Shown piece after piece: positions 1,250 to 44,035 of a stretch of DNA of 64,000 bases. The stretch spans positions 654,477 through 718,476 of the forward strand of contig OZ244916.1 of assembly GCA_965221835.1 (NCBI GenBank). Direction: 5' to 3'. Position numbers and translations under genes: made by a program. Source of the stretch: Gammaproteobacteria bacterium (lineage in GTDB: Bacteria > Pseudomonadota > Gammaproteobacteria > Tethybacterales > Persebacteraceae). Under the pieces are notes generated by a model. The model searched no databases. It was not told the DNA's origin and saw nothing but the letters and a program-made list of their open reading frames with translations. Within the stretch, counting starts at the first letter, position 1, and each line of letters begins with the position of its first letter.

Positions 1250-1876
1250 ATCATAATCCACACCCGCCCAAATGGGCGGGTGAATACTGACGAATTTCGA
1301 GTTGTGTGTGCGGCTGTTTCAATCCACACCCGCCCAAATGGACGGGTGAATGTTGGATAATCACATTCCCGACACTTTTGAGTTTCAATCCACACCCGCC
1401 CAAATGGACGGGTGAATCCACGAAGTCGCAGGGATATGAATCCAACGGTTTCAATCCACACCCGCCCAAATGGACGGGTGAATGACGAAATAAAACTCAA
1501 GCATCCGGTCTATGTTTCAATCCACACCCGCCCAAATGGACGGGTGAATCGGCAGTACGGTTGTTATAACTTCGGCATTGTTTCAATCCACACCCGCCCA
1601 AATGGACGGGTGAATTTCGGCGGCAGAGTCCTCATCTTGTTCTCGTTTCAATCCACACCCGCCCAAATGGACGGGTGAATGGCGGCGGCGGTTTTTCCTT
1701 GATTTTATCGTTTCAATCCACACCCGCCCAAATGGACGGGTGAATCAATTTCCTTCAATGCCATTTTCATATTGTGTTTCAATCCACACCCGCCCAAATG
1801 GACGGGTGAATAAAACCCGAATATGAAGCGGGTTTTCTTTGTTTCAATCCACACCCGCCCAAATGGACGGGTGAAT
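1250..1876 (-). CRISPR. CRISPR array of 10 repeats and 9 spacers. The repeat is 36 bp, GTTTCAATCCACACCCGCCCAAATGGACGGGTGAAT on the plus strand. Its reverse complement ends in GATTGAAAC, as type I-C repeats do. Spacers are 29-30 bp. The terminal repeat at 1250-1285 is degenerate.
   Basis: The repeat recurs with a 65-66 bp period at 1316, 1382, 1448, 1514, 1580, 1645, 1710, 1776 and 1841. Every spacer is unique. The repeat contains an internal palindrome, CACCCGCCCA / TGGACGGGTG. The array abuts the cas genes. Transcription is inferred to run on the minus strand, from the leader at 1877-1939. Confidence 0.95.
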
Positions 1877-1939
1877 AGCAAAATGTTAAAGATCTGTTAA
1901 TTCGCTTTTTTGCGAATAATCGGCGAATTAAAATTACTG
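1877..1939 (-). promoter_or_regulatory. AT-rich CRISPR leader lying between the cas7 stop codon and the first repeat.
   Basis: This is a 63-bp AT-rich stretch sitting directly between the cas7 stop at 1940 and the leader-proximal repeat, which ends at 1876. The repeat-degeneration gradient is consistent with this orientation. Confidence 0.6.
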
Positions 1940-2834
1940 TTATTTTAACCAATCTTCCAGCGTTACGCCCCAACTTTTCGGCGGCGTTTCGGCGGATACT
2001 TCAAAATCGGAAAAAGAACGCGGCGGCGCGGCGGCGTTTTTGCGCGCTACTTTTACCAAATCAAATAACTGATGCGCCGGTCTGTTGCCGAGTTTGCCAT
2101 CGTGCTTAAAAACATACAAACCGCGGACGGACATCATCCCGCGCGCCGCCGAACGGTCGTGTTCAAACATATTCCGCAACGCCTCCCAAAACAACGCCAA
2201 ATCTTCATCGGAAAAACCGATCCGCCGCCAAATGCGCCGAAATAAATCCGTGCGCGCGATACAGCGAATATGGAATCGTGTGCTTCCGCCCCATCGTCCG
2301 ATTGTCGCCGCTTTGTTTTTGCGCCTCCTTTTCGGTGGTGACCGCCATCCGCGTAATGGAATGTTCCAGCGAAACAATCGGCGCAACCGAACGCGCAAAA
2401 GTCATCTGCACCGGTCCGCGCACCTGTCCGCAATTGACGCCGGTGGACATCACCGCGCCGAAAGTGCGAATGTCGTAAAAATTGCCGCACATCCATTTGC
2501 GGAGATTTTTCGGTTCCCTTTCCGTTTTTGTCAACGCGTCATGGGCGCGCTGGTGTTGATTGTTCAGCACTGCCTTTTCTTTTACATAAATTTCATGGCG
2601 CGGCGACTCGCCGATTTTATAACTCTTCGGCTTGCCGTCCGCTTCGTCTTCCGCAAACTTCATTTCCACATAGTTGCGAATTTTGCGTTTCAGGCATACA
2701 TCGGTTACCAGCCCGTCGCCGGTTTCCGCGTCTATGCGCGGGTGATTTCCCGCATCGGGGTCGCCGTTCGGATTGCCGTCCAGCACATCAAAAAGCAATA
2801 CAAAATCATGCCGGTTTTGGATGGGATTATTCAT
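1940..2834 (-). pseudogene. cas7: Type I-C Cas7 (Csd2) with a broken reading frame. The N-terminal 209 aa and the C-terminal roughly 90 aa lie in different frames.
   Basis: The N-terminal part, [56 protein letters not shown], is a classic Csd2 start. That frame stops at 2205 after [15 protein letters not shown] second frame covering 2398 to 1940 carries the expected continuation, [27 protein letters not shown]...LFDLVKV. The junction lies near 2218-2226 in the sequence gcggcggatcgg. A strong RBS (aaggag) precedes the ATG at 2834. Confidence 0.7.
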
Positions 2835-4590
2835 TGTTATTCTCCTTTTTTGTGAAAAAATTCTGCCGCTGATGATAGTAGCCGAGGGCAAACAGCCCCT
2901 GCTCCTGCATTGTCAGTTGCGGCGGGAAATTGGCGAGTTTGCACATAATTTCGCCGACGGTTTTTTGGCGATTGACGGCAAGCCCGGGTTTGGCGTCTTT
3001 TAGTTTACTCAGATGGTGTTGGTGCAATTTTATCAGCGCGGGAAATGCCGCACCCGGCGACGATGACGCCGCACCGTAATAGCGGTCGCGAATGGTGGCG
3101 TTTATGCCGGGATTCGCGTCTTCTTGCAATTTTTCCAGCGCGGCAAACAACGCGCCCAGCCAATACCCCGGCGATTTAACTTCCGGATCCAGTTTCATAT
3201 CAATCTCCTTGTTGAGTTGCAAAGCGGGCGGCAATTGTTCCGCCCGATAAAATCGGTTTATGCAACCGCGCAAAAGCGCGGCGCGGTCCGGCGAAACATT
3301 TTCGCGTCGTTCCCCGTATTTTACGCCCGCGCGGCAACGATTGACCGCCGCCAGAAATGCCGTGCGCGGATACGGCGAATTTTGCAATATCGCCTGCATC
3401 ATTTCGCCGCCCAAATTGGGCGGGATATTGTCCGCCTTGCCTTGCACCGCCGTGGCAACCAGCAAACGAAATAGCCCCGGCGGGCGGGAGTCGTCCGCGC
3501 CGTCAATTTTAATGTCGTCAAAATGCCGCCGAATTCTTTCCGCAACATCTCCTACCGTTCCGTCGTGCCAAAAACGCACCGTCAACCGCACGCGATTCGC
3601 CCACAATCCCAGCACATAAAACGGCAAATCGCCTTCCGCGGCGTATGTTTTTCCGCTTCGGGGCGATTCGTACAATTTTTTCACCGCGGCAGTCCGGCGG
3701 TCGGGATTGTCTTCGGATGCGCCGCCAAATAAAACGCTAAAATCGGTTTCCAGTAGCGCGTCCTTTCCCGCCCAAAACACGGCGGTAGAATCGCCGACCT
3801 TGATTTTTTGTTCGCCAGTCAGCAGCATATTTAACGCGGCGGTGTATTTGTACATTGTCGCTTTTCCCACGGACGCATTTTTTGCCTTTGTTTTGCCGTA
3901 CGAATTAAACGCCGATTGCTTAAACGCGATAACTCCCGCGCCCGCCCCCGCACCGTTCACGCCGCGCACCGCGTTGTGCATATCCGGTATTTCGTCTTCG
4001 TCTCCGGAAATAATGCACCGTCCGTCCGGTTTCGCCGCCGCGCCGACATTTCGTTTTATTTCCGCCGCAACCGGCGGCGAATCGGAAACTATCGCATAAT
4101 CCGAATTTGCCAACTGAAACGACAAATACGCCAGACGCAAACGTTCATCACAAATTTCCGCCCACATCGGATCGCCGCGCACCGCGTCCATATCGGGATT
4201 TTGCAGAAACGCGACAACCGCGCGAACGCCCGAATCTTCGGCGACACTCTCCGGAATTTGCGTTTGTATTTTCCGCAAAAAACTTTCGCGGCGTTTTTTT
4301 GATACGGCGGCGGATGTGCCGCCGACTCCGAAAATATATTCCAAATTGTCGTACAATAAATTCGGATTTATCGCGCTTCCGCCGCGACACGACGGTTTAA
4401 TTGCAACTCTAACCGTATACTTCCCGCCGCGGTCTTTCGCATCGGCGCGGGTATCCTTAAAACCGGCAAACTCGCCGCTTTCGTTCAACACAATCAAAAA
4501 CGGAATTGGTTGATGTTCAAATCCCAGCGGCGGCATTTCGCCGCGCAACATTTTGCGGTCGTAATATTCCGTCAACGCGCGAACAGTCAT
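2827..4590 (-). CDS. cas8c: Type I-C Cas8c (Csd1) large subunit.
   Basis: The 587-aa translation begins [41 protein letters not shown], matching Csd1. It is positioned between cas5c and cas7, as in a canonical I-C operon. Confidence 0.85.
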
Positions 4591-5237
4591 TTGCGAATTT
4601 CCGCGCTATCGGGCGGCGGCAGATGAATCACGCCGTTTTGCATTTTCGCCCGAAACATCATCGGTTTCATTTCATCGGCAAAATCAATGTCGTACAACAT
4701 AAATCCCAAATCGCGGGAGTCGTCAATCGCCGCCCGTGCCGCCGCTTTCGTTCCCGGCGTTGCCAGACAAAACGCCGCCGAAAATTCGCGACATCCCAAA
4801 TACGGCTGATTAAAACACTGCCCTTTTTCCGCCCGCCGCGCAAATATTTCGGCGAATTTAACAATGCCGTCGCCCTCGCCCGCCTTGTCGGTCAATTGCA
4901 ACCGCGCATGCAAACGATACGCCACATCGCGCAAAAACAATCCCGCCCGCTGTTGCCGGTCTTCTTCCACATAAATTCCGCAACCCGCTTTGGACGGCGG
5001 ACGCGCAACACTCCCCACTTCGTTGCGGCGAAGATTAATCCACCGAATCGGTTTTAGTACTTCAATTTTTTCGGGAATCCACCTGATTGCCGGTTTCCAC
5101 ATAATCGCCTCAAAAATCGCCCGCGCCGCGGACGGAGTCATCACATCATAAGAAACGCGTTCCACTTTCATTTCCGGGCGCGTAAAGCAGGCAAAATCGC
5201 CCCAAACTTTCAGGCAAAAAGACGGCGACGATTTCAT
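4587..5237 (-). CDS. cas5: Type I-C Cas5c (Csd5d), the pre-crRNA-processing Cas5.
   Basis: The 216-aa translation contains FCLKVWGDFACFTRPEMKVERVSYDVMTPSAARAIFEAIMWKPAIRW, the Cas5d signature. Its stop overlaps the cas8c start by 4 bp. Confidence 0.9.
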   Translation of the reverse strand: MKSSPSFCLKVWGDFACFTRPEMKVERVSYDVMTPSAARAIFEAIMWKPAIRWIPEKIEVLKPIRWINLRRNEVGSVARPPSKAGCGIYVEEDRQQRAGLFLRDVAYRLHARLQLTDKAGEGDGIVKFAEIFARRAEKGQCFNQPYLGCREFSAAFCLATPGTKAAARAAIDDSRDLGFMLYDIDFADEMKPMMFRAKMQNGVIHLPPPDSAEIRK

Positions 5238-5245
5238 AACCGCGA

Positions 5246-7510
5246 TTATACTCCGCCCCGCCCGGGAATCGCAAACCCCGTTTCGTCCGAATAATTCGCC
5301 GCGCCCGATTCCGTCAGCACAAAAACGCCCGCCGTCAATTCTTCTATTTCGCCGCGACCGCGCATTTCGTCAAAATCTTTTTCCGGCACAGAAACCGAAA
5401 ACCGTTGCAACCCGCGCATCGTTGCACGCAAACGCGCACCTTCCGCCATCTGCAACGTTTTCCGCATTTTTTCGGAACCGGTATACCAAACGATAACCGG
5501 AATTTTTCCGTCTTCTTCAATAAACCGGAACTTCGCCGCCGCATCCCGAAATTGCATCTCGTCCGAACTCAACAGCCGGGAAATTCCTTTGTCATCAAAA
5601 TTGCGAATATCCCGATACAACAATTCAAAATAGCGGCGAAACTTGTCCGGCGTAAACATATCGTCGTCCGCGGCGAACAATTGCCGCATTTCTTGCACGA
5701 CCTGCCACCCCTGACGGATAAAACCCGGCGGCGGTATTTTCGGCGGCATAAACACGCGCAACTCGCCGCCGTCCGGCAATTTTCCTTCGCGGTTGCATCT
5801 TCCCGCCGCCTGCGCAATAGAATCCAATCCCGCCAGCGCGCGCCAGACGACCGGAAAATCAATATCCACGCCCGCCTCTATCAATGTCGTACTGACGACA
5901 ATCACTGGTTCGTTATTTTTCAATCGCGCCTTGATTTTTGCAATTTGTCGCGCGCGATGTTCGCCGCACATCAGCGCGGACAAATGAAAACATTCGGCGG
6001 CACCCCGTCCGATTGCGGACATTCGCGCCTTCGTTTTTTCGTACAAATCGCGGCACTCGTTCCGGCTGTTGACGATGCAAAGCGCGGATTTGTTTTCGCA
6101 AAGTTTTACGGCGATTTCGTCCCATTCCGTTTTTGACAAATCCCAGCGCGCGCGTACGCGCCGGAATTGGTCGCGGCGGAACAATGTTTCCGGCTGTTCG
6201 CAAACTTCGCGCGGCGCGCTGTTCAACGCCGCTTTCGCTTTCCGCAACGATTCCGCCCGAAACGCCGGTTGCGTAGCGGTGCAAAAAACAAAACTCGTTT
6301 TGTAAAACGCCGTCAATTCTTCAATCGCCGCCAAAGTCGGCGCGATCAATTCCAGCGGCAACGTTTGCGCTTCGTCCAAAATAACGACCGAATCGGCGAT
6401 GTTATGCAGTTTGCGACATTTCCCCGGCGCGGCGGCGAAAAGCGATTCAAAAAATTGCACATTCGTCGTAATGACAATCGGTGCGTCCCAATTTTCGGTT
6501 GCCAGCCGATTTTTGTACGCCGCGCGGCGCGCCTGTTCGTCTTCGGATTCTTCGCCGCGAATGTTGGAATGATGTTCCACGACATTGTCGTCGCCGAAAA
6601 CGCCGCGAAAAATATCGGCGGTTTGTTCAATAATGGAAGTGAACGGAATGGCGTAAATAATTCGCCGTTTGCCGTGCGCCGCGGCATGCGCCAGCGCGAA
6701 CGCCATGGACGACAATGTTTTGCCGCCGCCGGTCGGCACCGTGAAACTGAACAATCCCGGCGACTGTTCGCCCGCCGCAACGCATTGCGTCAAAATGTCG
6801 GCGCGGATTTTGTCAATCGCCGTTTTTTCCGCGTCCGTCTTAAAACCTTTCATATAGCCGTCAAACTTTTCGCGCAACGCGGAAATTTCCGCATAATCGC
6901 CGCGCACCGGCGGAACAGGCGAAGAAGATTTTTCCGCATGCAACCGGTCGGCATCCACCAAACACGAAAACAACATTCGCGTCCACAAAGAAAGTCGAAT
7001 CCAAGAAGGGGCGTTTTCATGTCCGGTGTTGCGGCGCAAACACGCCAAACCGGGAATTGTCGCGTTGCGCACAAATTCGGGAAAATGTTTCTCGTTTTTG
7101 CGCGCCTTATCCAGCCATTCGCCTTCGCGGAAAATTCGTTCTTCCAAACTCGCGCCTTTCGCATCGCCGTCTCCGCAATTCGGCAAGCCGGTGTGATGTC
7201 CGAAAATGACAAACGACAACAACTTCGCCGCGCATTTTTCTTCCGCATTTTTTGCGAGAAAGTTTTGCGCGTACAATCCGCCCGCCGAGGAATGTTTAAT
7301 TTTTCCGCGCGGCGCATTAATTTCGCCGCGTAAATATTGTTGAAACTCATCGCCGTATTTGCCGAGGTCGTGCAATCGCCCCGCCAACGTCGCCCATTCT
7401 TTCGCGCCAAAAACGGCGGCAAATCCTCCCGCATTTTTACCGACCGAATTTAAATGTTCCGCCAAATCGCATTTGGTGTTTTCGGAAAAATGCGAAAAAA
7501 ATGTTTTCAC
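5246..7510 (-). CDS. cas3: Cas3 HD-nuclease/helicase with a GTG start.
   Basis: The 754-aa translation has an N-terminal HD domain (HDLGKYGDEFQ), a Walker A motif (VPTGGGKT) and a DEAD-like VILDEAQ motif. The GTG start lies 4 nt after the mpl stop codon. Confidence 0.9.
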   Translation of the reverse strand: MKTFFSHFSENTKCDLAEHLNSVGKNAGGFAAVFGAKEWATLAGRLHDLGKYGDEFQQYLRGEINAPRGKIKHSSAGGLYAQNFLAKNAEEKCAAKLLSFVIFGHHTGLPNCGDGDAKGASLEERIFREGEWLDKARKNEKHFPEFVRNATIPGLACLRRNTGHENAPSWIRLSLWTRMLFSCLVDADRLHAEKSSSPVPPVRGDYAEISALREKFDGYMKGFKTDAEKTAIDKIRADILTQCVAAGEQSPGLFSFTVPTGGGKTLSSMAFALAHAAAHGKRRIIYAIPFTSIIEQTADIFRGVFGDDNVVEHHSNIRGEESEDEQARRAAYKNRLATENWDAPIVITTNVQFFESLFAAAPGKCRKLHNIADSVVILDEAQTLPLELIAPTLAAIEELTAFYKTSFVFCTATQPAFRAESLRKAKAALNSAPREVCEQPETLFRRDQFRRVRARWDLSKTEWDEIAVKLCENKSALCIVNSRNECRDLYEKTKARMSAIGRGAAECFHLSALMCGEHRARQIAKIKARLKNNEPVIVVSTTLIEAGVDIDFPVVWRALAGLDSIAQAAGRCNREGKLPDGGELRVFMPPKIPPPGFIRQGWQVVQEMRQLFAADDDMFTPDKFRRYFELLYRDIRNFDDKGISRLLSSDEMQFRDAAAKFRFIEEDGKIPVIVWYTGSEKMRKTLQMAEGARLRATMRGLQRFSVSVPEKDFDEMRGRGEIEELTAGVFVLTESGAANYSDETGFAIPGRGGV

Positions 7511-7514
7511 TTTT

Positions 7515-8861
7515 TTAGATGTTTTTCACCATTTCCGCCACGGTTTGCGGGAGGTTGGCGAAGTCGCCGTTGGACATTAATATTATGCAGTCGTTTGTGC
7601 GGATTTCGTGGTGCAAGTAGTCGGCGGCGGTGGCGGCGGTCGGGAAAACTTTTGTTTTTTCGGGCGGCAGAAATGTCGCCAACCATTCTTGTTCTCCGAC
7701 TGCGACAACTTTGTGTGCCGCAGCGAAAGCGTTCGGTAAACGCGCGCGCAATGCGCCCGCTTTCATCGTGTTGGAACGCGGTTCAAACACTGCGACAATT
7801 CGTTTTTGCGGATATTCCGCCGCCGCTGCTTCCAAAGTTTTGCGGTAGGCGGTCGGATGATGTGCGAAATCGTCGTAGACCAAAATTCCGTTCGCGTCTG
7901 CAAGTTTTTGCATTCGCCGCAACGGCGGACGAAATCCTTGCAAATAATCCGGCAGTTTGCGCACATCCGCTCCCGCATAATGTGCGGCGGCAGCGGCGGC
8001 GAGAATATTGTCGCGATTCGCTTCGCCGAACATCGGCGGAACAAACGCGCACATTTCTTCGCCGCGATAATAAACGCGCATTATTTTTCCGTCTTTGTCG
8101 CGTCTTTGCCATTCGCCGCCTTTTCCGAATTGCGACAGCGGCGAATATATTCCCGCCTTCGCCGCCGCGCGCAAATAACGCGAACGGGCGCGCATAATCA
8201 CCCGCCCGTTGCCGGGAACGCAACGCAACAAATAATGAAACTGTCGCGCGATTTCGTTTTCATTACGATAAATATCTGCGTGATCAAATTCTAAATTATT
8301 TAACAACGCGATGTGCGGGCGGTAATGCAAAAACTTCGGACGTTTATCAAAAAACGCCGTGTCATATTCGTCCGCTTCAACTACAAACCATTCGGAATTG
8401 CCGCTGCGTGCGGAAACGCCGAAGTTTGGTGCGATTCCGCCTGCCAAAAATCCCGGCGACAAACCGGCGCGTTCCAAAATCCATGCCAGCAATGCTGTCG
8501 TTGTTGTTTTGCCGTGCGTGCCGGCAACCGCTAATACTTTTCTGTCGGCGAGAATATTTTCGCCAAGCCATTGCGCCGCCGAAATATACGGACGGCGTTC
8601 CGCCAACACCGATTCCACCAACGGATTGCCGCGCGAAACCGCGTTGCCGACAATATACAAATCGGCGGGACGGTCAACGACTGTCGCCTCGTATCCTTCG
8701 TATAACTTCGCGCCCGATTGTCGCGCCGCATCGCCGAAAGGCGGATAAAATGCGCGGTCGCTGCCGCAAACAGTGAATCCTTTTTCCGCCGCCAGTTGTG
8801 CAACCCCCGCTCCCAATGCGCCGGCGATTCCGATGAAATGCAAATGTTTCATCGCCGCCAA
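7515..8861 (-). CDS. mpl: UDP-N-acetylmuramate:L-alanyl-gamma-D-glutamyl-meso-DAP ligase.
   Basis: The 448-aa translation shows the Mur ligase fold, with GIAGALG and GTHGKTTTT motifs and an Mpl-like C-terminus. Confidence 0.9.
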   Translation of the reverse strand: MAAMKHLHFIGIAGALGAGVAQLAAEKGFTVCGSDRAFYPPFGDAARQSGAKLYEGYEATVVDRPADLYIVGNAVSRGNPLVESVLAERRPYISAAQWLGENILADRKVLAVAGTHGKTTTTALLAWILERAGLSPGFLAGGIAPNFGVSARSGNSEWFVVEADEYDTAFFDKRPKFLHYRPHIALLNNLEFDHADIYRNENEIARQFHYLLRCVPGNGRVIMRARSRYLRAAAKAGIYSPLSQFGKGGEWQRRDKDGKIMRVYYRGEEMCAFVPPMFGEANRDNILAAAAAAHYAGADVRKLPDYLQGFRPPLRRMQKLADANGILVYDDFAHHPTAYRKTLEAAAAEYPQKRIVAVFEPRSNTMKAGALRARLPNAFAAAHKVVAVGEQEWLATFLPPEKTKVFPTAATAADYLHHEIRTNDCIILMSNGDFANLPQTVAEMVKNI

Positions 8862-11738: not shown

Positions 11739-12251
11739 ATGCAAAAAAATATGTCCGAAATGCGCGCGCGATTTCGCCGCTATCTATCTTCGCTTTTGCT
11801 TGCAGAATTGTGCCGGGGAATGGCGCTGACTTTCCGGCAGATGTTCCGCCGCAAAATCACCGTGCATTTTCCCGAAGAAAAAACACCGCGCAGCCCCCGA
11901 TTTCGCGGACTGCACGCCTTGCGCCGCTATCCGAACGGCGAAGAACGATGCATCGCTTGCAAATTGTGCGAGGCGGTTTGTCCGGCGATGGCGATTCATA
12001 TCGCTTCCGAACAACGCGAAGACGGCAGCCGCCGCACTACTCAGTACGACATTGATTTAACCAAATGCATTTTTTGCGGAATGTGCGAAGAGGCGTGTCC
12101 CGTTGATGCAATTGTAGAAACGCATGTTTTGGAATATCACGGCGAACGGCGCGGCGATTTGTACTACACAAAAGAAATGCTGCTCGCCGTGGGCGATAAA
12201 TACGAAGCGGAAATCGCTTCCGCCCGCAAAACCGATGCCGCTTATCGCTAA
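11739..12251 (+). CDS. nuoI: NADH-quinone oxidoreductase subunit I (2x[4Fe-4S] ferredoxin). It is isolated from any nuo operon.
   Basis: The translation contains [31 protein letters not shown] and [18 protein letters not shown], and is near-identical to NuoI over its full length. A TATAAT box lies about 20 bp upstream. Confidence 0.85.
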
Positions 12252-14418
12252 ACTTTTCCGCGCAACGGCGGCGGCGATTGTTCTCGGCATATTGTCGCCA
12301 TCTTTCGCCGAACCCGTCTCGGCGTATTCGCCGGAAAAAGAAATAGAAGAATTGGAACAGCGGTTTGTGCGCCAAGAAATTCTCGCCTTGCAGCGGGTGG
12401 AAGATGTGGAAACGCGGATTGAAATATTGGACCGCCATTTCAATCGCGTTTTTTTGATTTTGGGATTATCGGCGGCACTTGCGTTGATGCTTTTCGCCGC
12501 CCATCAACGCAGTCGCAATCGCTTAAATACCGAACGCTTAAATCGTGCCGTGCGCGAAGCCGATATGTTGCGAGACGATATTCGCCGCGAATTGCATCGC
12601 CCGGAAACGGAGTTTTTGCGCATCGGACATTTTTTGCGAAGAATGATGCGCGAATCGCTGGACGCCAAACCCGCCGAACGACATTTTTCGGAAATTCGTG
12701 CCATTATTCGCGACCCTAATGTGCCGGTGTCGCTGCATTATATGGCGCAAATTTTGCTTTTTGAACACGATTCGCGTTGGCGAGATGCCGAACATGTTTT
12801 GGAACAACTTCGGCAAATGGATCCCGAAGATCCTTTCGTACTTTTGCATTTATTTCATGTACATACCCGCATTTCCGAAGGTTCGGGCGATTCGTACGAC
12901 CGCAAACGCCATCGTCAAACCGCAAATCAATACTACGCCCAATTTGCAGTTATCGCGCAAACAAAAGACATTCCCGCCTCTCCGGCAACGGCGAAAAAAT
13001 CCCCGCCCGCCCCGAAAACGCCGCCCCCGGCAATTGCCGCCGCCGAATCCGAATCCGAAAACGCTTCCAAAACTGCCGAAAACGATTCCGAATTTGATTC
13101 CGAATCCGCCGCCGAAAACATTACCAAAAACGCCGCTGAATCCAAATCCAAATCCGCCGCCGAATCCGAATCCAAATCCGCCGCCGAATCCGAATCCGAA
13201 TCTGCATCCAAAATTGCCGAAAACGTTTCTGAATCTGATTCCGAATCCGTTGCCAAATCCGCCGCCGAATCTAAATCCAAAACTTCCGAAAACGTTTCTG
13301 AATCTGATTCCGAAAACATTGTCAAAAACGCCGCTGAATCCGAATCCAAATCCGCCGCCGAATCTAAATCCAAAACTTCCGAAAACGTTTCTGAATCTGA
13401 TTCCGAATCTGCTTCCGAAAACATTGTCAAAAACGCTGTTGAATCTGAATCCAAAACTTCCGAAAATGTTTCTGAATCTGATTCCGAAAACATTGCCGAA
13501 AACGTTTCTGAATCTGAATCCAAAACTTCCGAAAAAGATTCCGAAAACGATTCTGAATCTGAATCCGAATCTGGTGCGGAAGTGCAAACGAATATTTCCA
13601 AACCGCAATCGGAAATTGTGCATACAAAACCCGCGCAATCGCCGCCGGTTAAAACCGAATTCGCTCCTCCTCAAATTGTACCGCCCAAACCGCCGAAAAC
13701 GGCGGAAACAAAGCCCGCTCCGAAAATGCCGCCGTCATTGCCGTCCGCCGCAAACGGCAAAAAACGTCCCGCCGAAAATTTATTAATGAAAAAAATCGGC
13801 AAACTATCATGGCGGGGAATCGGCGGCGCAATCAAAAACAAAACCGTCAATTTAATCGGCGAAGCAACGAATGTTGCCGGAAAAATTAACAACGGCGCGA
13901 ACGGCGACATCCCGCCGTTTTTGCCGGTGCCCGCAATTTCCGAATTGCCGGAAAAAAAAGGAACGGCAGAAAGCGAAATGTGGAAATGCATTCGCGCCGG
14001 TGATTTGGCAATGGCGCAAGCCGCCGCAGTTGCGAATATGCGTCATCGCAATCGTTTGATAGACCGCGCGTTAATTTCTTATGCGCAAGCGCAAGGACAC
14101 AAAACTAACGAAACTTTGTATTTGAATTGGGGATTGTCTTTGCTCGGCAAGGCGTTGCATTTGCCGCTCAAAAAACGCGAACCATTTTTTAATGCCGCCA
14201 TAGATAAATTTTTGGCGGGCAATGTTATCAGTCCGCACCGTTTTGATTTTTCGCTGGCGACTTTATACGCTATCATCGGGCGCGAAACCGAGTGCAAACA
14301 ATGGCTTGCCACAGCGCGCGAATCGGGAACGCTGAATTTGGAATCGTTGCATCATGCGCCCGATTTTGACGGCGTGCGCAATCAGCCGTGGTTTGCCGAA
14401 TTCATGCGCGACGAATGA
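12235..14418 (+). CDS. Hypothetical membrane protein. It has an N-terminal signal/anchor, a coiled coil, a second transmembrane segment, an acidic Ser/Glu-rich tandem-repeat region, a Pro/Lys-rich linker and a C-terminal helical (TPR-like) domain.
   Basis: The 727-aa reading starts at the ATG at 12235, overlapping the nuoI end. Hydrophobic segments [14 protein letters not shown] and [18 protein letters not shown] are present. Repeats of the form [31 protein letters not shown] recur. A proline-rich stretch, [28 protein letters not shown], follows. Confidence 0.6.
13020..13600 (+). repeat. Imperfect in-frame tandem repeats of roughly 69-bp units, encoding Ser/Glu/Lys-rich acidic repeats.
   Basis: The motif gaatc(c/t)gaatccaaa(a/t)c... 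recurs many times. Antisense and alternative-frame ORFs here are artefacts of this repeat: 12698-13786 (PNPNPP-rich) and 12850-13674 (GFGFGG-rich). Confidence 0.8.
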
Positions 14419-25273: not shown

Positions 25274-26599
25274 TTAGATATATCCGAGTTCGTGCAGCCG
25301 TTTGCGGGCGTTTTCCATTGTGCGCGTTGATTTAATGGTGTTGCACGAACCGCAAAGAAGTTGCAAATTTCCGTCCACATCCGGACCGCCTTTTGCGCGG
25401 GGAATAATATGATCTAAATGAAAATAACGCGGTTCAAAATGGTGTTTGCAAAGATTGCAATTACCCCCCTGTCGTCCGTACAAAATTTGGCGAATATCCC
25501 GGCTGCGGATTTGTTTATAATCGGTGCGCATCGGGCAGTCGTTTTTAATGTTGCGGTGATGCACTTTCCGCTCGCCTTCGCCGAGTTTGCCTTTTTCGGT
25601 TTCCGATTTCAGCCGGGCTTTTACCAAACTTGCCGCCTTTTCGGCAACATCAATTCCAATCCATTTTCGGTCCAATCTTTCGGCGGCGATGCAAGTTGTC
25701 GCGCAACCGCAAAACGGATCAATAACCAAATCGCCTTCGTTGGAGGATGCAAGAACGATTCTTTCCAAAAGCGCGAGTGGTTTTTGCGTCGGGTATCCGG
25801 TGCGTTCGGGGGAATTCGGACCGAATGTAATTTCCCACCAATCTTCCGGAACTTTTCCCGCCGAATGCCGTGCCGCCAATTTTTCGGGCGGATCCCCCTT
25901 CCATATTCCGGATCCTCCGCGATTTCTTTCGGGGATATTTTTCCGTTCGGGCATGCGGGAAAGTTTGTAAGGCACGCGAACGGAATCGGCGTTAAAAACA
26001 TAATTCTCCGTTTTGCTATACCGGAAAATTAAGTCATGTTTTCGCGGAAAATCTTTTTTTGCGCTGCTTGTTGACGCATAACACCAGACAATTTCGTTGC
26101 GAAAATTGTTGTCGCCAAAAACAATATCCATAAGAAGTTTCAGCGAATGCGACATCGTCGGGTCGCAATGCAAATAAATGCTGCCGGTCGGTTTCAGCAG
26201 TCGCCGCATTTCCATCAATCGCGCCGCCATAAACGATAAATACGCCATTTCCGCATTGCCAACGATTTCGCCCATCGTTTCCAAAAAGCGCACGATTTTT
26301 TTCGCCGTTGCGCCGTCTATCAGCGGATTCCCGTCCGCCGCCGCCGCAATCAATTCGTCAAACGCATACAACTCCGCGTACGGCAAATACGGATTTTTTT
26401 CGTCCGCCGCGCTGTCCCAACCCCAAATATCCTTAAATCCAAACTCGGCGGAACCGCCTTTTCCAATCGGAAAAACAAACTTTTTATTGAACGGCGGATC
26501 TAGATAAATTAAATCCACCGTTTCGGAATTCATCGCGCGCATCACCTCCAAATTGTCGCCAGTAAACAAAGTCCGATTTTCTATCTGTTTTTTACTCAT
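25274..26599 (-). CDS. DNA methyltransferase (beta-class N6-adenine/N4-cytosine family, DPPF motif) fused to a C-terminal HNH nuclease domain. This is copy 1.
   Basis: The translation contains DLIYLDPPFN (motif IV), then ERTGYPTQKP and VIDPFCGCATT (motif I), then C-terminal CNLCKHHFEPRYFHLDHIIPRAKGGPDVDGNLQLLCGSCN (HNH). The start is placed at MSKKQIENR, which has an RBS (aaaagga). Confidence 0.8.
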   Translation of the reverse strand: MSKKQIENRTLFTGDNLEVMRAMNSETVDLIYLDPPFNKKFVFPIGKGGSAEFGFKDIWGWDSAADEKNPYLPYAELYAFDELIAAAADGNPLIDGATAKKIVRFLETMGEIVGNAEMAYLSFMAARLMEMRRLLKPTGSIYLHCDPTMSHSLKLLMDIVFGDNNFRNEIVWCYASTSSAKKDFPRKHDLIFRYSKTENYVFNADSVRVPYKLSRMPERKNIPERNRGGSGIWKGDPPEKLAARHSAGKVPEDWWEITFGPNSPERTGYPTQKPLALLERIVLASSNEGDLVIDPFCGCATTCIAAERLDRKWIGIDVAEKAASLVKARLKSETEKGKLGEGERKVHHRNIKNDCPMRTDYKQIRSRDIRQILYGRQGGNCNLCKHHFEPRYFHLDHIIPRAKGGPDVDGNLQLLCGSCNTIKSTRTMENARKRLHELGYI

Positions 26600-26757
26600 A
26601 ACATTCCTTTTCAATTCCGATATCCGCAAAAACTAATTATACCCGAATCCCGCCGCCGTTAAATGGTAATCGTGCGGGGTGATTTTCATTGTTCATCATT
26701 TCCGTGGCGGGCGGAGTCGGGGGCTTAATGGTGGGAAGATTTGTTTTGGTCATTTTT

Positions 26758-34957: not shown

Positions 34958-35135
34958 ACCACATCACGCGAGATCTTTCCGACTCTGTCGGGTGGCTCGT
35001 GAATACAATACCCGATAACGGAGGGAATAATTAACCCGCCGGGGGAATAAACGGGGACATTCAGGAAGGTCTGCGTGTGATGTGGTAATCCTCCCGACTT
35101 TTTGGGGGACTTTGTCATTACCGCAAAGGACTACT
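34958..35135 (+). promoter_or_regulatory. Long structured 5' leader of the second MTase-HNH gene. A long-range stem (ACCACATCAC at 34958-34967, GTGATGTGGT at 35067-35076) encloses about 100 nt. The leader shows partial sequence similarity to the leader of copy 1.
   Basis: A 10-bp perfect long-range inverted repeat is present, with internal hairpins (CCGACTCTGTCGG). The motifs CCGACTC and TAACGG.GGG.ATAATT also occur in the leader of copy 1, which spans 26757-26600 on the minus strand. Confidence 0.4.
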
Positions 35136-36461
35136 GTGAACCAAGCGCAAATAGAGAACCGGACTCTGTTTACCGGCGACAATTTGGAAGTGATGCGCGC
35201 CGTCAATTCCGAGACGGTGGATTTGATTTATCTGGATCCGCCGTTTAACAAAAAATTCGTTTTTCCGATTGGAAAAGGCGATTCCGCCGAATTCGGATTT
35301 AAAGATATTTGGGGATGGGATAGCGCACCGGATGAAGGCAATCCGTATTTGCCGTACGCGGAGTTGGCGGCGTTTGACGAACTTGTGGCGGCGGAAGCGG
35401 ACGGCAATCCGTTAATAGACCGCAAGATGGCGAAAAACACCGTCCGCTTTTTGGAAACGATGGGACAAATCGCCGGCGAAGCGGAAATGGCGTATTTGTC
35501 GTTTATGGCGGCGCGTTTAATTGAAATGTGGCGGTTGCTGAAACCGACCGGCAGCATTTATTTGCACTGCGACCAAACAATGTCGCACTCGCTTAAACTT
35601 TTGATGGATATTGTTTTCGGTGAAAATAATTTCCGCAACGAAGTTATTTGGTGTTATGTCGGTGGCGGAAACGCAAAAAACGCTTTTAACAAAAAACATG
35701 ACACGGTCTTTTTTTACACGAAACAAAAAAATCGTTCGTTTTTTAATTGGAAAGATGTTGCTATGCCATATAATAATATTCCGCTTACGGCGCAATGGCG
35801 CAAAGGGTTTACAAACAGACAAGAAGCGGAAAAACGCGCCTTGGCAAAATATAAAGATGGCAAAGCGCGATATGATTGGTGGACGGATATTCCATCTTAT
35901 GGAACGGCTACGCGGAATCCCGAAAGAACCGGCTACCCGACTCAAAAACCGGTTTTGCTTTTGGAAAGAATCATAAAAGCGTCCAGCAACGAAGGCGATT
36001 TTGTTCTTGACCCGTTTTGCGGATGCGCGACAACTTGCGTTGCCGCCGAAAGATTAAACCGCCATTGGTGCGGAATTGATGTTGCCGAAAAAGCGGCGCA
36101 ACTCGTTCGCGCCCGCCTTCTTGCCGAAACAAAACAAGGCAAACTCGGCGACAAAGTACCGCAAGTGCATCACCGCGATTTCGGCAAAGGCGATTTTCCG
36201 ATGCGCACCGATTTGGGCGATTCGCGCAGTAAAAATATCCGCATAGTTTTGTTTGGAAATCAGGAAGGCAAATGCAATCTTTGTAAACGCCGTTTTGATT
36301 TGCGCGATTTTGAGGACGATCATATTATTCCGCGCAAAAAAGGCGGACCGGATGTTGACCGCAATTTGCAATTGCTTTGCAGTTCGTGCAACCGAATTAA
36401 ATCCACGCGCACAATGGAACAAGCCCGCAAACGACTGCGCGAATTGGGATACGCCGCTTAA
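35136..36461 (+). CDS. DNA methyltransferase (DPPF, beta-class) fused to a C-terminal HNH nuclease. This is copy 2, with a GTG start.
   Basis: It is about 70% identical at the protein level to the 25274-26599 product. The N-terminal 200 aa are near-identical, and the DNA is about 85-90% identical there. HNH motif: CNLCKRRFDLRDFEDDHIIPRKKGGPDVDRNLQLLCSSCN. An RBS (aaagga) lies 5 nt before the GTG. Confidence 0.8.
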   Translation: MNQAQIENRTLFTGDNLEVMRAVNSETVDLIYLDPPFNKKFVFPIGKGDSAEFGFKDIWGWDSAPDEGNPYLPYAELAAFDELVAAEADGNPLIDRKMAKNTVRFLETMGQIAGEAEMAYLSFMAARLIEMWRLLKPTGSIYLHCDQTMSHSLKLLMDIVFGENNFRNEVIWCYVGGGNAKNAFNKKHDTVFFYTKQKNRSFFNWKDVAMPYNNIPLTAQWRKGFTNRQEAEKRALAKYKDGKARYDWWTDIPSYGTATRNPERTGYPTQKPVLLLERIIKASSNEGDFVLDPFCGCATTCVAAERLNRHWCGIDVAEKAAQLVRARLLAETKQGKLGDKVPQVHHRDFGKGDFPMRTDLGDSRSKNIRIVLFGNQEGKCNLCKRRFDLRDFEDDHIIPRKKGGPDVDRNLQLLCSSCNRIKSTRTMEQARKRLRELGYAA

Positions 36462-42121: not shown

Positions 42122-43555
42122 TCAGAAACGATGAATCGCGTTTATTTGGAATCTGGCGTTTTCGGTGAAATCTTTTGCGTTTTCCCAGCGGAATCCGGCG
42201 GAGGGGAGAATCGTCCAGCCGTCATAACGGAAATTGCCTTGCAGATTTAACTCGTTGCGAGTTTCCGTTTCGCCTTTGTCATATTCGGAGTGCAGGCGAT
42301 AGACGGGGGAAAACATCATTAAACTCCCGTCTATATCCGCCGACAGCATAAATGAGGAGTTAGCCGTCTCGCCTGCAACGGATTCGGAAAATGCCGCTGT
42401 AAATAAATCGCCGTTATATTTTCCGCCCGATGTGTAGCGGAAATCACCGAAATCGCCGTTTGCGTTTGTTTGTTTTGCGGTGTAATACAAATGCCAATTG
42501 TCTTTGCGGAAATCCGCCCGTCCGCCGACATTTGCGTAATAGCCGCTTTCGGTTATGGAATAGCCGAAATCGGGCGACATATTAAAAGACGGAACGCCGC
42601 CTGCCAAAAATACCGCTATCACTCCGACAGCCAAAAGTCCGGTAGCGGTATTGATAGATTTTACCCTTCTCTCCTTATTATCCGCCCGATTTTGCGGTGT
42701 TTGCGTTGTCGGATTTTGCGTTTCCGGCGGATTAGTTCCCGTTTCCGTGTTGCCGTCTTGCGGATTTTCCGTTTCCGTGTTGTCGTCTTGCGGATTTGTT
42801 TGACAAATTCCGGCGTCGTCTCTTGTTTCAGTATCCAAACATGCGTCTACGCAAACGCCGTTAACAAAATCGGGAGTCGCCCCCGGGCAATCGGCGGCGG
42901 ATTCAATTGCACGGCAAGAAAGTCCGCCTGTTTCCAAAATCGGCAATTCATCGGTTGCACATTCGCATGCATCGCCCGCCTCGTTTAAGTTTGCAGTCGT
43001 GCCATCGCAAAAATCGGTTTCAATTATCGTATCGCAAGTTGTCGTTCTTCCCGCATCCGCCGCCGTGAAAGTAAACACATCGGTCAGCGGGATAGCATTT
43101 TCGGTTATATCCCGTGCAACGACAAGACAATCGCAGTTTGCGGGATCTGCACACTGATTCATTGCATGTGTGTGTGCCTCTGCTGCGGTGTCGCCTAGTC
43201 CCTCAATAGTTGCTACATCTCCTAAATTGGGTATGGATAAATCTGCATAAACGGCAAAATATTCCTCACCATTAACATTTCTTGCTACTGCTGAACAAGT
43301 ACTAGCAGTATCAGGATGAGATTGACATGTTAAAGCTGAATGAGCTACTGCAAGACGTTCCGTTTCTCCCATAACCTCCTCTGCAGGATAGCCGACAGCA
43401 ACACCGATAATAAGTATTGTTGGGTCTGGGCTGCCCGGACTAAAATCAGTATCAAATCCGGCAGTAGCAGCCCCTTCTGCATTTGCGGAAATGTTAGACA
43501 ATCCCGCCGCAAAAAAGACGGCGGCGATGATGATTTTATTGATTGTGTTTTTCAT
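42122..43555 (-). CDS. Hypothetical secreted or surface protein. It has a signal peptide, a Cys/Asp/Thr-rich central region, and a C-terminal region rich in aromatic/Gly beta-strands that ends in RF, which is outer-membrane-barrel-like.
   Basis: The start is at MKNTINKIIIAAVFFAAGLSNISANA with a strong RBS (gaggag). The C-terminus, ...FRWENAKDFTENARFQINAIHRF, has a terminal Phe. The listed 632-aa ORF over-extends into the upstream repeat array. Confidence 0.6.
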   Translation of the reverse strand: MKNTINKIIIAAVFFAAGLSNISANAEGAATAGFDTDFSPGSPDPTILIIGVAVGYPAEEVMGETERLAVAHSALTCQSHPDTASTCSAVARNVNGEEYFAVYADLSIPNLGDVATIEGLGDTAAEAHTHAMNQCADPANCDCLVVARDITENAIPLTDVFTFTAADAGRTTTCDTIIETDFCDGTTANLNEAGDACECATDELPILETGGLSCRAIESAADCPGATPDFVNGVCVDACLDTETRDDAGICQTNPQDDNTETENPQDGNTETGTNPPETQNPTTQTPQNRADNKERRVKSINTATGLLAVGVIAVFLAGGVPSFNMSPDFGYSITESGYYANVGGRADFRKDNWHLYYTAKQTNANGDFGDFRYTSGGKYNGDLFTAAFSESVAGETANSSFMLSADIDGSLMMFSPVYRLHSEYDKGETETRNELNLQGNFRYDGWTILPSAGFRWENAKDFTENARFQINAIHRF

Positions 43556-43684
43556 GGTTTTGCTCCTCTGATTAAAAATGTCTGCGAAAGTATAACACAT
43601 TCCGCCCGAATCAACAAAAAAACGGGCGGGTTCGGCAAGAAATGCGTAAATTGCTGATTTCCCGCCTTTTTTCTGCATTTCCGT

Positions 43685-43936
43685 GCGTTCGGAAATGTTT
43701 TCAGAGCGTTCCAAAATGTTTTCAGAGCGTTCGGAAATGTTTTCAGAGCATTCCGAAAAGTTTTCAGAGCGTTCGGAAATGTTTTCAGAGCATTCCGAAA
43801 TGTTTTCAGAGCATTCCGAAATGTTTTCAGAGCGTTCGGAAAAGTTTTCAGAGCGTTCGGAAATGTTTTCGGAGCGTTCGGAAATGTTTTCAGAGCATTC
43901 GGAAATGTTTTCAGAGCGTTCGGAAAAGTTTTCCGA
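43685..43936. repeat. Twelve tandem copies of a 21-bp unit (GCGTTCGGAAATGTTTTCAGA and variants), 130-380 bp upstream of the 42122-43555 gene.
   Basis: The units are head-to-tail with an exact 21-bp period and minor variants (gcattccgaaat, gcgttccaaaat). The ORFs 43642-44052 and 43683-43967 are translation artefacts of this array. Confidence 0.9.
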
Positions 43937-44035
43937 GACCTCGCAAAACATTTGCGGGGTTTTGTGAACGCCCTTTTTTGCCGAAAATTTTCGGCTGTGG
44001 TACAATTGGCATTCGCACATTTGGAATTGAAATTA

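What the first reader, a model, noticed from the sequence alone, without database searches (positions are those of the whole stretch)
1250..1876. Unusually long 36-bp repeat with 29-30 bp spacers for a type I-C array
Type I-C repeats are typically 32 bp with 33-35 bp spacers. Here all ten repeats share a 36-bp unit. Its reverse complement is ATTCACCCGTCCATTTGGGCGGGTGTGGATTGAAAC, which keeps the I-C-like GATTGAAAC 3' handle and a 10-bp stem. It carries four extra conserved 5' bases. The spacers are correspondingly short at 29-30 bp, so the period stays at about 66 bp. Alternatively the first 4 nt may derive from a fixed spacer-end, which would reflect an acquisition or ruler mechanism with an unusual spacer-side trimming specificity.
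Basis: seen in the sequence. Interest (0 to 1): 0.5.

Follow-up and report, generated by a model that had tools for sequence, protein, structure and literature searches.

The report
Type I-C CRISPR array with short spacers
This is a real type I-C CRISPR array whose 36-base repeat is normal for its family; what is unusual is that its spacers are about 5 bases shorter than in other type I-C systems and the genes that normally insert spacers are missing from the locus, a combination shared by a small distinct branch of type I-C systems.

Summary
In detail: 10 repeats (9 identical 36-mers and one degenerate terminal copy) and 9 spacers of 29-30 nt at 1250-1876. The array is read on the minus strand, downstream of cas3-cas5c-cas8c-cas7.

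Long repeats are not unusual for type I-C: in 48 related I-C arrays, 37-nt repeats outnumber 32-nt ones. This repeat is that 37-nt family (Rfam CRISPR-DR9-like) minus its first base. ATTC is repeat, not spacer. It is invariant in three strains that share none of 27 spacers, it is present in the leader-proximal repeat, and its C closes the 9-bp stem.

The real anomaly is the spacer length. All 32 spacers in this lineage are 29-30 nt, whereas only 5 of about 1,690 are 30 nt or shorter in canonical I-C arrays.

cas4-cas1-cas2 are absent from the locus and from the 64-kb window. Two other metagenomic lineages (L122, L123) show the same three traits: no cis adaptation genes, a 36-nt repeat and 30-nt spacers. 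With the window they form a 100%-bootstrap Cas7 clade.

Best reading: a distinct I-C sub-lineage that is probably supplied by an unlinked integrase with a shorter ruler and probably builds a Cascade with six rather than seven Cas7. In this particular genome cas7 carries a 2-bp frameshift.

The parts
1250..1876 (-). CRISPR array: 10 repeats and 9 spacers, transcribed on the minus strand (repeat ATTCACCCGTCCATTTGGGCGGGTGTGGATTGAAAC)
   Evidence: Orientation rests on the ATTGAAAC 3' end, the degenerate distal repeat, and the shared strand with the cas genes.
1841..1876 (-). Leader-proximal (first) repeat. It carries ATTC although no spacer precedes it.
1250..1285 (-). Degenerate terminal repeat (ATTCACCCGCCCATTTGGGCGGGTGTGGATTATGAT); its 3' handle is mutated.
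   Evidence: The terminal repeat is also degenerate, in different ways, in L081 and L117.
1286..1840 (-). Nine spacers (1286-1315, 1352-1381, 1418-1447, 1484-1513, 1550-1579, 1616-1644, 1681-1709, 1746-1775, 1812-1840) of 29-30 nt, interleaved with eight 36-nt repeats
   Evidence: None is shared with strains L081 or L117.
1877..1939 (-). Short AT-rich leader (63 nt) between the cas7 stop and repeat 1. It has the canonical I-C leader features TT at -13/-12 and GC at -3/-2, and a TTCGC box about 2 nt out of register.
   Evidence: This evidence is weak: the in-register PWM score is not significant.
1940..2834 (-). cas7 (csd2), disrupted in this genome by a 2-bp deletion at about 2219/2220 (GGATACCGG became GGATCGG). 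It is intact (298 aa) in sister strains L081 and L117.
2827..4590 (-). cas8c (csd1), 587 aa
   Evidence: TIGR01863, 460.6 bits against a cut-off of 218.65
4587..5237 (-). cas5c (the crRNA-processing Cas5d family), 216 aa
   Evidence: TIGR01876, 193.1 bits against a cut-off of 85
5246..7510 (-). cas3 (HD nuclease plus helicase), 754 aa

Best explanation
The feature is a genuine type I-C CRISPR array, transcribed on the minus strand from a 63-nt leader directly downstream of cas3-cas5c-cas8c-cas7.

Its 36-nt repeat belongs to the common long-hairpin (37-nt, Rfam DR9-like) class of I-C repeats and has lost only the first base. The layout is 3 nt, a 9-bp stem, a 4-nt loop, and an 11-nt tail that becomes the crRNA 5' handle. 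ATTC is part of the repeat.

The locus belongs to a monophyletic I-C sub-lineage with three shared traits: no cas4-cas1-cas2 next to the effector genes, 36-nt repeats, and spacers of 29-30 nt instead of 33-36 nt.

Shown: the anatomy, the clade, the outlier spacer length, complete spacer turnover between near-identical cas operons, and the absence of adaptation genes within 64 kb.

Inferred: (a) spacers are inserted in trans by a Cas1-Cas2 integrase encoded elsewhere in the roughly 2.0-Mb genome, whose ruler gives 29-30 nt and a 36-nt repeat duplication; (b) Cas5c cuts at the 3' base of the stem, giving crRNAs of about 65-66 nt; (c) because the spacer is about 6 nt (one Cas7 step) shorter than canonical, Cascade carries six rather than seven Cas7.

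In this genome the 2-bp cas7 frameshift probably inactivates interference.
For: Subtype: Cas8c, Cas5c, Cas7 and Cas3 all match type I-C models above cut-off.

Repeat class:
- Rfam DR9 hit at E = 2.5e-7 with an identical 9-bp stem, 4-nt loop and 11-nt tail.
- Gapless alignment to 37-nt I-C repeats, lacking column 1 only.
- A 9-bp stem using the C of ATTC.

ATTC is repeat: three strains (window, L081, L117) have identical repeats and 27 unshared spacers. Arrays with the same stem and handle but 33-36 nt spacers have homologous 5' ends, GATTC, GTTTC and GCATC.

Short spacers are an outlier: 48 I-C repeat families all have spacer medians of 33-36.5 nt, and only 5 of about 1,690 spacers are 30 nt or shorter. 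Here 32 of 32 are 29-30 nt.

No adaptation genes: tblastn and HMM profiles of I-C Cas4, Cas1 and Cas2 hit nothing in any of the six frames of the window. The remaining ORFs are housekeeping genes.

Clade: L122, L118 and L123 have cas7 followed by a leader of about 100 nt and then the array, with a 36-nt repeat and, where spacers could be read (L122, L123), 30-nt spacers. The Cas7 clade has 100/100 bootstrap support.

Live array: cas genes differ at pS 0.005-0.02 between strains against 0.03-0.05 for the neighbouring mpl, with pN/pS about 0.2, yet no spacer is shared. Spacers W7 and S7 are overlapping opposite-strand samples of one target.

Precedents: a cas1/2-less VI-B locus is served by a II-C module. 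Canonical I-C Cascade has seven Cas7. Cascade Cas7 number follows spacer length.
Against: - No adaptation module has been seen. It may not exist in this genome, because only 64 kb plus about 7 kb of roughly 2 Mb could be inspected.
- No protospacer was found, so the PAM, the spacer orientation and current activity are unverified.
- The six-Cas7 stoichiometry is extrapolated from I-E experiments and from the canonical I-C structure.
- The leader's resemblance to canonical I-C leaders is weak, so it does not identify the integrase type.
- The Rfam score of 39.2 bits is below the 45-bit gathering threshold.
- All three strains have exactly 9 spacers. Free-running adaptation does not predict this, and it remains unexplained.
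- The cas7 frameshift shows that at least one strain tolerates loss of the system.
Confidence: 0.6

Rival explanations
1. One reading: the true repeat is 32 nt, and the 4 nt ATTC are a fixed spacer end produced by an unusual trimming or ruler specificity, so the spacers are really 33-34 nt.
For: The period of 65-66 nt equals that of canonical arrays with 32-nt repeats and 33-34 nt spacers. ATTC contains TTC, the canonical I-C PAM.
Against: - ATTC is present in the leader-proximal repeat, which has no upstream spacer, and in the degenerate terminal repeat.
- It is invariant across 27 unrelated spacers in 3 strains.
- Homologous 5' tails occur in 37-nt repeats whose spacers are of normal length.
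- The C of ATTC forms the closing pair of the 9-bp stem, and removing it costs 2.6 kcal/mol.
- The Rfam DR9 model aligns ATTC to repeat positions 2-5.
- ATTC lies at the PAM-distal side of the spacer, whereas a PAM-derived base would adjoin the GAAAC end.
- Clade member L123 has AATC rather than ATTC at this position, varying with the repeat and not with the spacers.
Confidence: 0.02
2. The locus is a decaying relic. The adaptation module was deleted, no new spacers are being acquired, the array is a fossil, and the short spacers are a historical accident of the lost integrase.
For: - There is no cas4/cas1/cas2 in cis or within 64 kb.
- cas7 is frameshifted in the window's genome.
- The arrays are small (9 spacers) and of identical size in all strains.
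- No spacer matches any known phage or plasmid.
Against: - Strains whose cas operons differ at only about 1% of synonymous sites share 0 of 27 spacers. Frozen arrays would be shared.
- The same architecture is conserved in lineages whose Cas8c is only 48% identical and whose Cas7 is 66-69% identical by BLASTP (70-73% over trimmed alignment columns), with intact genes. This implies long-term maintenance.
- pN/pS is about 0.2.
- cas7 is intact in 2 of 3 strains.
Confidence: 0.1
3. A sub-hypothesis of the best explanation: the unlinked integrase belongs to a different CRISPR type with a native geometry of 36-nt repeats and 30-nt spacers (type II-like), and the I-C array has been adapted to that heterologous adaptation module.
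For: - The combination of 36-nt repeat and 30-nt spacers and the very narrow length distribution (only 29 or 30 nt) resemble Cas4-less ruler integrases more than I-C, whose spacers spread over 33-37 nt. That type II arrays have this geometry is from general knowledge.
- Cross-type in-trans adaptation is experimentally established for II-C serving VI-B, where both loci had equal repeat lengths in F. columnare.
- The composite W7/S7 target shows no TTC PAM directly adjacent to either spacer.
Against: - No type II or other cas gene has been seen.
- The repeat sequence and the leader-proximal motifs are I-C-like.
- The PAM inference rests on a single composite target.
- The clade spans hosts of very different GC content, so a conserved heterologous partner would have to co-occur in all of them.
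Confidence: 0.2
4. A sub-hypothesis of the best explanation: an I-C-type cas4-cas1-cas2 module of the same lineage sits elsewhere in the genome, possibly with a second array, and has itself evolved a shorter ruler.
For: The repeat is a one-base-shortened member of the I-C 37-nt family, and the leader keeps the canonical I-C junction features TT at -13/-12, GC at -3/-2 and a TTCGC box. This is what co-evolution with an I-C integrase would predict.
Against: - No I-C Cas1/Cas2/Cas4 was detected within 64 kb.
- Among about 50 canonical I-C loci examined, none has spacers shorter than a median of 33 nt, so there is no precedent for such a ruler in I-C.
- Split I-C loci were not seen among the 80 relatives.
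Confidence: 0.3

Closest known systems
Canonical type I-C CRISPR-Cas with 37-nt repeats (e.g. Deinococcus aetherius pDAETH-1, PGAP-annotated; loci L001, L002, L013, L100, L110, L111)
   Same: It has the same effector genes in the same order (cas3-cas5c-cas8c-cas7). The repeat architecture is the same: a 3-4 nt 5' tail, an 8-9 bp GC-rich stem, a 4-6 nt loop and an 11-nt tail ending GGATTGAAAC. The array lies downstream on the same strand.
   Different: Canonical loci carry cas4-cas1-cas2 between cas7 and the array and have 33-36 nt spacers (period 71-72). Here the adaptation genes are absent, the repeat is 36 nt and the spacers are 29-30 nt (period 65-66).
Rfam CRISPR-DR9 (RF01322)
   Same: The best and only CRISPR family hit. 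The stem, loop and tail geometry are identical and the GGAUUGAAAC 3' end is conserved.
   Different: The score of 39.2 bits is below the 45-bit gathering threshold. Model position 1 is missing, and the stem sequence differs through compensatory changes.
Canonical 32-nt type I-C repeats (D. vulgaris/Delftia type, GTCGCGCCCCGTGCGGGCGCGTGGATTGAAAC)
   Same: It shares the 11-nt handle-encoding 3' end and a GC-rich hairpin processed by Cas5c. The array period is a similar 66 nt.
   Different: The 32-nt class has a 7-bp stem and a 2-nt 5' tail, and in alignment it lacks 5 internal hairpin positions. Its spacers are 33-35 nt.
CRISPR loci that lack cas1/cas2 and acquire spacers in trans (F. columnare VI-B served by II-C; also type IV-A3 and many type III loci)
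   Same: An effector plus array without adaptation genes, with spacer content that nonetheless varies between strains.
   Different: Those cases are type III, IV or VI effectors. A type I-C effector lineage that has dispensed with its own cas4-cas1-cas2 and shows a non-native spacer length did not turn up in the two relevant literature searches made here. The donor module here is unidentified.
Engineered altered-stoichiometry Cascades (E. coli I-E with shortened spacers)
   Same: A spacer shortened by about one 6-nt Cas7 step is expected to give a Cascade with one fewer Cas7.
   Different: Those are laboratory constructs in type I-E. Here the short spacer would be the natural, fixed state of an I-C lineage, and the stoichiometry is inferred rather than measured.

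Membership tests
Type I-C CRISPR-Cas | Cas8c/Csd1 large subunit | tested here: met
   TIGR01863, 460.6 bits (cut-off 218.65); PF09709, 500 bits
Type I-C CRISPR-Cas | Cas5c (Cas5d family) as the crRNA-processing subunit in place of Cas6 | tested here: met
   TIGR01876, 193.1 bits (cut-off 85). No Cas6 was seen among the scanned ORFs, but ORFs at 10-45 kb were judged by reading translations only.
Type I-C CRISPR-Cas | Cas7/Csd2 backbone subunit, intact | tested here: inconclusive
   The N-terminal fragment scores 269.9 bits on TIGR02589 (cut-off 182.25), but the gene is split by a 2-bp deletion in the window. It is intact (298 aa) in sister strains L081 and L117.
Type I-C CRISPR-Cas | Cas3 with fused HD nuclease and helicase | tested here: met
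   TIGR01596 (HD) 104.6 bits and TIGR01587 (helicase core) 127 bits, both above cut-off
Type I-C CRISPR-Cas | cas4-cas1-cas2 adaptation module in the operon | tested here: not met
   cas7's stop is 63 nt from repeat 1. tblastn and HMM profiles of I-C Cas4/Cas1/Cas2 find nothing in the 64 kb. The module is also absent in L081, L117, L118, L122 and L123.
Type I-C CRISPR-Cas | Repeat with a GC-rich hairpin and an 11-nt 3' tail ending ATTGAAAC | tested here: met
Type I-C CRISPR-Cas | Typical spacer length of 33-37 nt | tested here: not met
   Spacers are 29-30 nt in 32 of 32 cases, against medians of 33-36.5 nt in 48 I-C repeat families.
Type I-C CRISPR-Cas | 5'-TTC PAM | tested here: inconclusive
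   No protospacer was found. One composite target from overlapping spacers shows no adjacent TTC.
Rfam CRISPR-DR9 (RF01322) | Score at or above the gathering threshold (45 bits) | tested here: not met
   The best score is 39.2 bits, E = 2.5e-7.
Rfam CRISPR-DR9 (RF01322) | Consensus structure: 4 nt, 9-bp stem, 4-nt loop, 11-nt tail | tested here: met
   All 9 pairs are formed. Only model position 1 is missing from the repeat proper.
CRISPR loci adapted in trans | No cas1/cas2 in cis, but spacer content varies between close strains | tested here: met
   0 of 27 spacers are shared among three strains whose cas genes differ at pS of about 0.01.
CRISPR loci adapted in trans | A co-resident adaptation module elsewhere in the genome | not testable with these tools
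   Only the window and 10-kb flanks are accessible.

The most novel reading that the evidence does not exclude
This would be a natural 'short-Cascade' branch of type I-C. The branch has permanently given up its own cas4-cas1-cas2. Its arrays would be filled by a heterologous integrase with type II-like geometry (36-nt repeat, 30-nt spacer). The effector would then have co-evolved to a crRNA one Cas7 step shorter, giving six Cas7. That would be cross-type adaptation feeding a type I DNA-targeting effector, with the spacer length set by the donor system.
Probability: 0.2. Interest if true: 0.75.

Novelty: new variant of a known kind. Interest (0 to 1): 0.5.

Why it matters
Spacer length is normally a fixed signature of each CRISPR subtype. 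It is set by the Cas1-Cas2(-Cas4) ruler and matched by the number of Cas7 subunits in Cascade.

A conserved I-C lineage with spacers one Cas7 step shorter and no adjacent adaptation genes offers a natural test of two questions. One is how effector size and integrase ruler co-evolve. The other is whether a type I effector can depend on an unlinked, possibly heterologous, adaptation module.

Type I-C is also the compact Cascade-Cas3 system used for genome engineering, so a naturally shorter I-C Cascade could have practical interest.

For annotation practice, the result corrects a common assumption. 36-37 nt repeats are a major I-C class and not an anomaly.

Tried and rejected
1. Neisseria-type host with a II-C system. 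No DUS or USS uptake sequence of any dialect occurs in 64 kb. GltB places the host in an uncultured small-genome lineage labelled Gammaproteobacteria. The taxon-based argument was dropped.

2. Protospacer and PAM mapping. All of the following found nothing: blastn of all three arrays against 50,697 phage and 72,556 plasmid records, six exact-seed scans of IMG/VR, and self-target searches. The 16-mer hits were chance. The Deinococcus hits were repeat-to-repeat alignments.

3. Scoring the leader with a PWM of the canonical I-C leader box. The in-register score is not significant, and with a 2-nt shift it reaches only 2 bits. It is used only as weak evidence.

4. Looking beyond the far end of the window. 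The chosen protein was not on record.

5. Finding the genome's own cas1. No tool gives access to the rest of the roughly 2-Mb genome.

6. Promoter and terminator scan of the leader and array. Nothing exceeded the shuffled expectation.

7. A first cas1/2/4 script failed on file layout and was repeated. The HMM for component 0 mixed Cas4 and Cas1 ORFs, so its sensitivity is limited.

Full report
OBSERVATION

The region 1250-1876 contains ten direct repeats with a 65-66 nt period. Nine copies are the identical 36-mer GTTTCAATCCACACCCGCCCAAATGGACGGGTGAAT on the + strand. The copy at 1250-1285 is degenerate. The nine spacers are 30 nt (6) or 29 nt (3). A 25-nt core of the repeat occurs 10 times in the window and never in 100 shuffles, and nowhere else in the 64 kb. 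Two small corrections apply: only nine copies are identical, and the stem is 9 bp including one G-U pair, not 10 bp.

CONTEXT AND ORIENTATION

Immediately beside the array, on the minus strand, lie four cas genes.
- cas3: 5246-7510.
- cas5c: 4587-5237.
- cas8c: 2827-4590.
- cas7: 1940-2834.
All match type I-C models above the curated cut-offs.

The array is read on the same strand as ATTCACCCGTCCATTTGGGCGGGTGTGGATTGAAAC. The degenerate repeat is at the far end, next to gltD. Only 63 AT-rich nucleotides separate the cas7 stop from repeat 1.

Two things differ from a textbook I-C locus.

First, cas7 is split by a frameshift. Two sister strains show this to be a 2-bp deletion specific to this genome (GGATACCGG became GGATCGG at about 2219/2220). 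The deposited assembly also has cas7 called in two pieces.

Second, there is no cas4-cas1-cas2. tblastn with adaptation genes from five I-C loci, and HMM profiles built from about 50 loci, hit only cas7 in all six frames of the window. The other ORFs are housekeeping genes plus DNA methyltransferases.

IS A 36-NT REPEAT UNUSUAL FOR I-C? NO.

I fetched 80 I-C loci related by Cas7 (54-67% identity) and 20 metagenomic arrays that share the 3' half of the repeat. I then called their arrays.
- Of 48 well-resolved repeat families, 26 are 37 nt, 13 are 32 nt, 6 are 33 nt, and one each is 31, 35 and 38 nt.
- A PGAP-annotated complete I-C locus on a Deinococcus aetherius plasmid also has a 37-nt repeat.
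- Rfam's best match is CRISPR-DR9, a 37-nt model with a 4-nt tail, 9-bp stem, 4-nt loop and 11-nt GGAUUGAAAC tail. The match has E = 2.5e-7 and 39.2 bits, below the 45-bit gathering score.

In a multiple alignment, the window's repeat aligns without gaps to the 37-nt family and lacks only column 1. The 32-nt class instead lacks five positions inside the hairpin. So the extra length relative to 32-nt repeats is a longer hairpin, not four added 5' bases.

IS ATTC REPEAT OR SPACER? REPEAT.

Two further strains of the same species-level lineage were recovered through exact Cas8c and Cas5c matches.
- L081 is a 158-kb contig.
- L117 is a 1,999,211-bp contig whose name suffix (_c) suggests it is circular.
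- Both are 97-98% identical to the window in the flanks.

Both have the same locus and the same 36-nt repeat, and their spacers are entirely different. That gives 27 spacers with none shared, all 29-30 nt, and every one followed by ATTC.

Further evidence points the same way.
- ATTC is present in the leader-proximal repeat, where no spacer lies upstream.
- Its C forms the closing pair of the stem. The 32-nt version loses that pair and 2.6 kcal/mol.
- Arrays with the same stem and handle but normal 33-36 nt spacers have homologous tails: GATTC, GTTTC and GCATC.

THE REAL ANOMALY: SPACER LENGTH

In the 48 comparison families every spacer median is 33-36.5 nt. Only 5 of about 1,690 spacers are 30 nt or shorter. 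Here all are 29-30 nt, with a very narrow distribution. Arrays with essentially the same repeat (L100, L110, L111) have 34-36 nt spacers. The short spacers are therefore not a consequence of the repeat sequence or of a boundary artefact.

A CLADE, NOT AN ACCIDENT

This Cas8c is isolated; the next homolog is 48% identical. That nearest relative (L118, L122) and the nearest Cas7 relative (L123, a Tara contig) show the same three traits.
- The cas7 stop is followed by a leader of about 100 nt and then the array, with no cas4/1/2.
- The repeats are 36 nt: ATTCGCCCGTACTAAAATACGGGCGTGGGTTGAAAC in L122 and AATCATCCGCTATATTATGCGGATGGGGATTGAAAC in L123.
- The spacers that could be read are 30 nt: four in L122 and one in L123; L118's contig ends inside its first spacer.

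In a neighbour-joining tree of the 120 nearest Cas7 proteins these three lineages form a clade in 100 of 100 bootstraps. The next-nearest loci (L119, L120, L121, L124) are canonical. All four carry cas4-cas1-cas2, and the two whose arrays could be called, L120 and L121, have 33-38 nt spacers.

IS THE ARRAY LIVE?

Between the three strains the cas genes differ at only pS 0.005-0.02. That is less than the neighbouring mpl (0.03-0.05), and pN/pS is about 0.2. Yet no spacer is shared.

One pair of spacers (W7 and S7) begins with reverse-complementary 16-mers. They are overlapping samples of one target taken from opposite strands (E = 3e-6).

Spacer content therefore turns over much faster than the cas genes diverge. 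That requires an adaptation activity which is not encoded in cis.

MECHANISM

Shown:
- The anatomy and the I-C effector set.
- The repeat class.
- The absence of adaptation genes in cis.
- The clade.
- The outlier spacer length.
- The spacer turnover.

Inferred:
(a) Insertion is carried out in trans by an unlinked Cas1-Cas2 whose ruler yields 29-30 nt spacers and duplicates a 36-nt repeat. Cross-type in-trans adaptation has an experimental precedent in II-C serving VI-B.
(b) Cas5c cleaves at the 3' base of the hairpin. This would give crRNAs of about 65-66 nt: an 11-nt 5' handle, a 29-30 nt guide and a 25-nt 3' hairpin.
(c) Canonical I-C Cascade has seven Cas7, and Cascade assembles fewer Cas7 subunits on shortened spacers. 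The shortfall of about 6 nt predicts six Cas7.

Whether the donor integrase is an I-C-type module elsewhere or a heterologous one with 36/30 geometry cannot be decided here.
- The leader keeps the canonical I-C junction features, TT at -13/-12 and GC at -3/-2. Its upstream TTCGC box is 2 nt out of register and statistically weak.
- The single composite target shows no adjacent TTC PAM.

In this genome the cas7 frameshift probably abolishes interference.

WHAT REMAINS UNEXPLAINED

- No protospacers were found.
- The host is an uncultured lineage with genomes of about 2 Mb, and its genome could not be scanned beyond the window.
- All three strains have exactly nine spacers, which free-running adaptation does not predict.

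VERDICT

This is a real type I-C array. The long repeat is ordinary. The 'fixed spacer-end' idea is refuted.

The finding worth keeping is different from the one flagged. It is a conserved I-C sub-lineage with 29-30 nt spacers and no cis adaptation module. I rate it a new variant of a known kind, of moderate interest, with a clear decisive test: scan the complete genome for cas1-cas2.

Noticed in passing
window 2219-2220 (minus strand, inside cas7 1940-2834): A 2-bp deletion (GGATACCGG became GGATCGG) splits cas7 into two ORFs in this genome only. Sister strains L081 and L117 have an intact 298-aa cas7, and the deposited assembly also has it called in 209-aa and 76-aa pieces. It is not a homopolymer site, so it is probably a real lesion, but the raw reads were not checked.
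   Followed up: yes
window 1250-1876; L081 12717-13343; L117 13364-13989: All three strains have exactly 9 spacers and 10 repeats although they share no spacer. This could be coincidence or some constraint on array size. It is unexplained.
   Followed up: partly
window 1418-1447 (spacer W7) and L081 13148-13176 (spacer S7): Two spacers, both the 7th in their arrays, begin with reverse-complementary 16-mers (CGTTGGATTCATATCC and GGATATGAATCCAACG). They are overlapping opposite-strand protospacers of one unknown target. The deduced flanks (..GAATTCCCG| and ..GAAGTCGCAG|) show no directly adjacent TTC PAM.
   Followed up: partly
window 2827-8861 compared with L081 and L117: The cas operon is several-fold less diverged between strains (pS 0.005-0.02) than the adjacent housekeeping gene mpl (pS 0.03-0.05). 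This suggests a recent sweep or recombinational transfer of the cas locus within the species.
   Followed up: partly
window 25274-26629 (-) and 35082-36461 (+): Two paralogous genes of about 450 aa encode a DNA methyltransferase (DPPFN motif) fused to a C-terminal HNH-like module. Their N-terminal halves are nearly identical. They lie 9 kb apart on opposite strands among housekeeping genes.
   Followed up: no
window 62247-63803 (-): An Eco57I-type / N6 DNA methylase gene (PF07669, PF02384), possibly part of a type IIG or type I-like restriction-modification system at the window edge.
   Followed up: no
window 12124-14418 (+) and 42122-44020 (-): Two large proteins contain long low-complexity tandem repeats rich in Ser and Glu ([10 protein letters not shown]... 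and SENISERSENFSE...). The second ends in what looks like an outer-membrane beta-barrel-like region. Their function is unknown.
   Followed up: no
window 1812-1840 (spacer W1, leader-proximal): The newest spacer reads as a hairpin plus U-run on the transcribed strand (AAAACCCG-CTTCATATT-CGGGTTTT). It looks like a captured intrinsic terminator and could attenuate pre-crRNA transcription. The simple terminator scan did not flag it.
   Followed up: partly
leaders of 46 canonical I-C arrays (loci L001-L080), positions -55 to -46, -13/-12 and -3/-2 relative to repeat 1: Canonical I-C leaders share a conserved box G.TTCGCG.A about 50 nt upstream of the first repeat, plus TT at -13/-12 and GC at -3/-2, irrespective of whether the repeat is 32 or 37 nt. 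This may be an integrase or host-factor recognition element. I did not check whether it is already described.
   Followed up: partly
L121 6130-8674; L124 1-2055: Some canonical I-C relatives carry inserted or neighbouring genes. L121 has a HEAT-repeat gene and a Fic/RhuM gene inserted among cas7, cas4 and cas1. L124 has a second cas1-cas2-cas6 module plus HIRAN and WYL genes just upstream of the I-C operon.
   Followed up: no
window 53173-55482 (-): A ComEC-type competence channel gene is present, but none of the known Neisseriaceae or Pasteurellaceae uptake-sequence dialects occurs in the 64 kb.
   Followed up: partly
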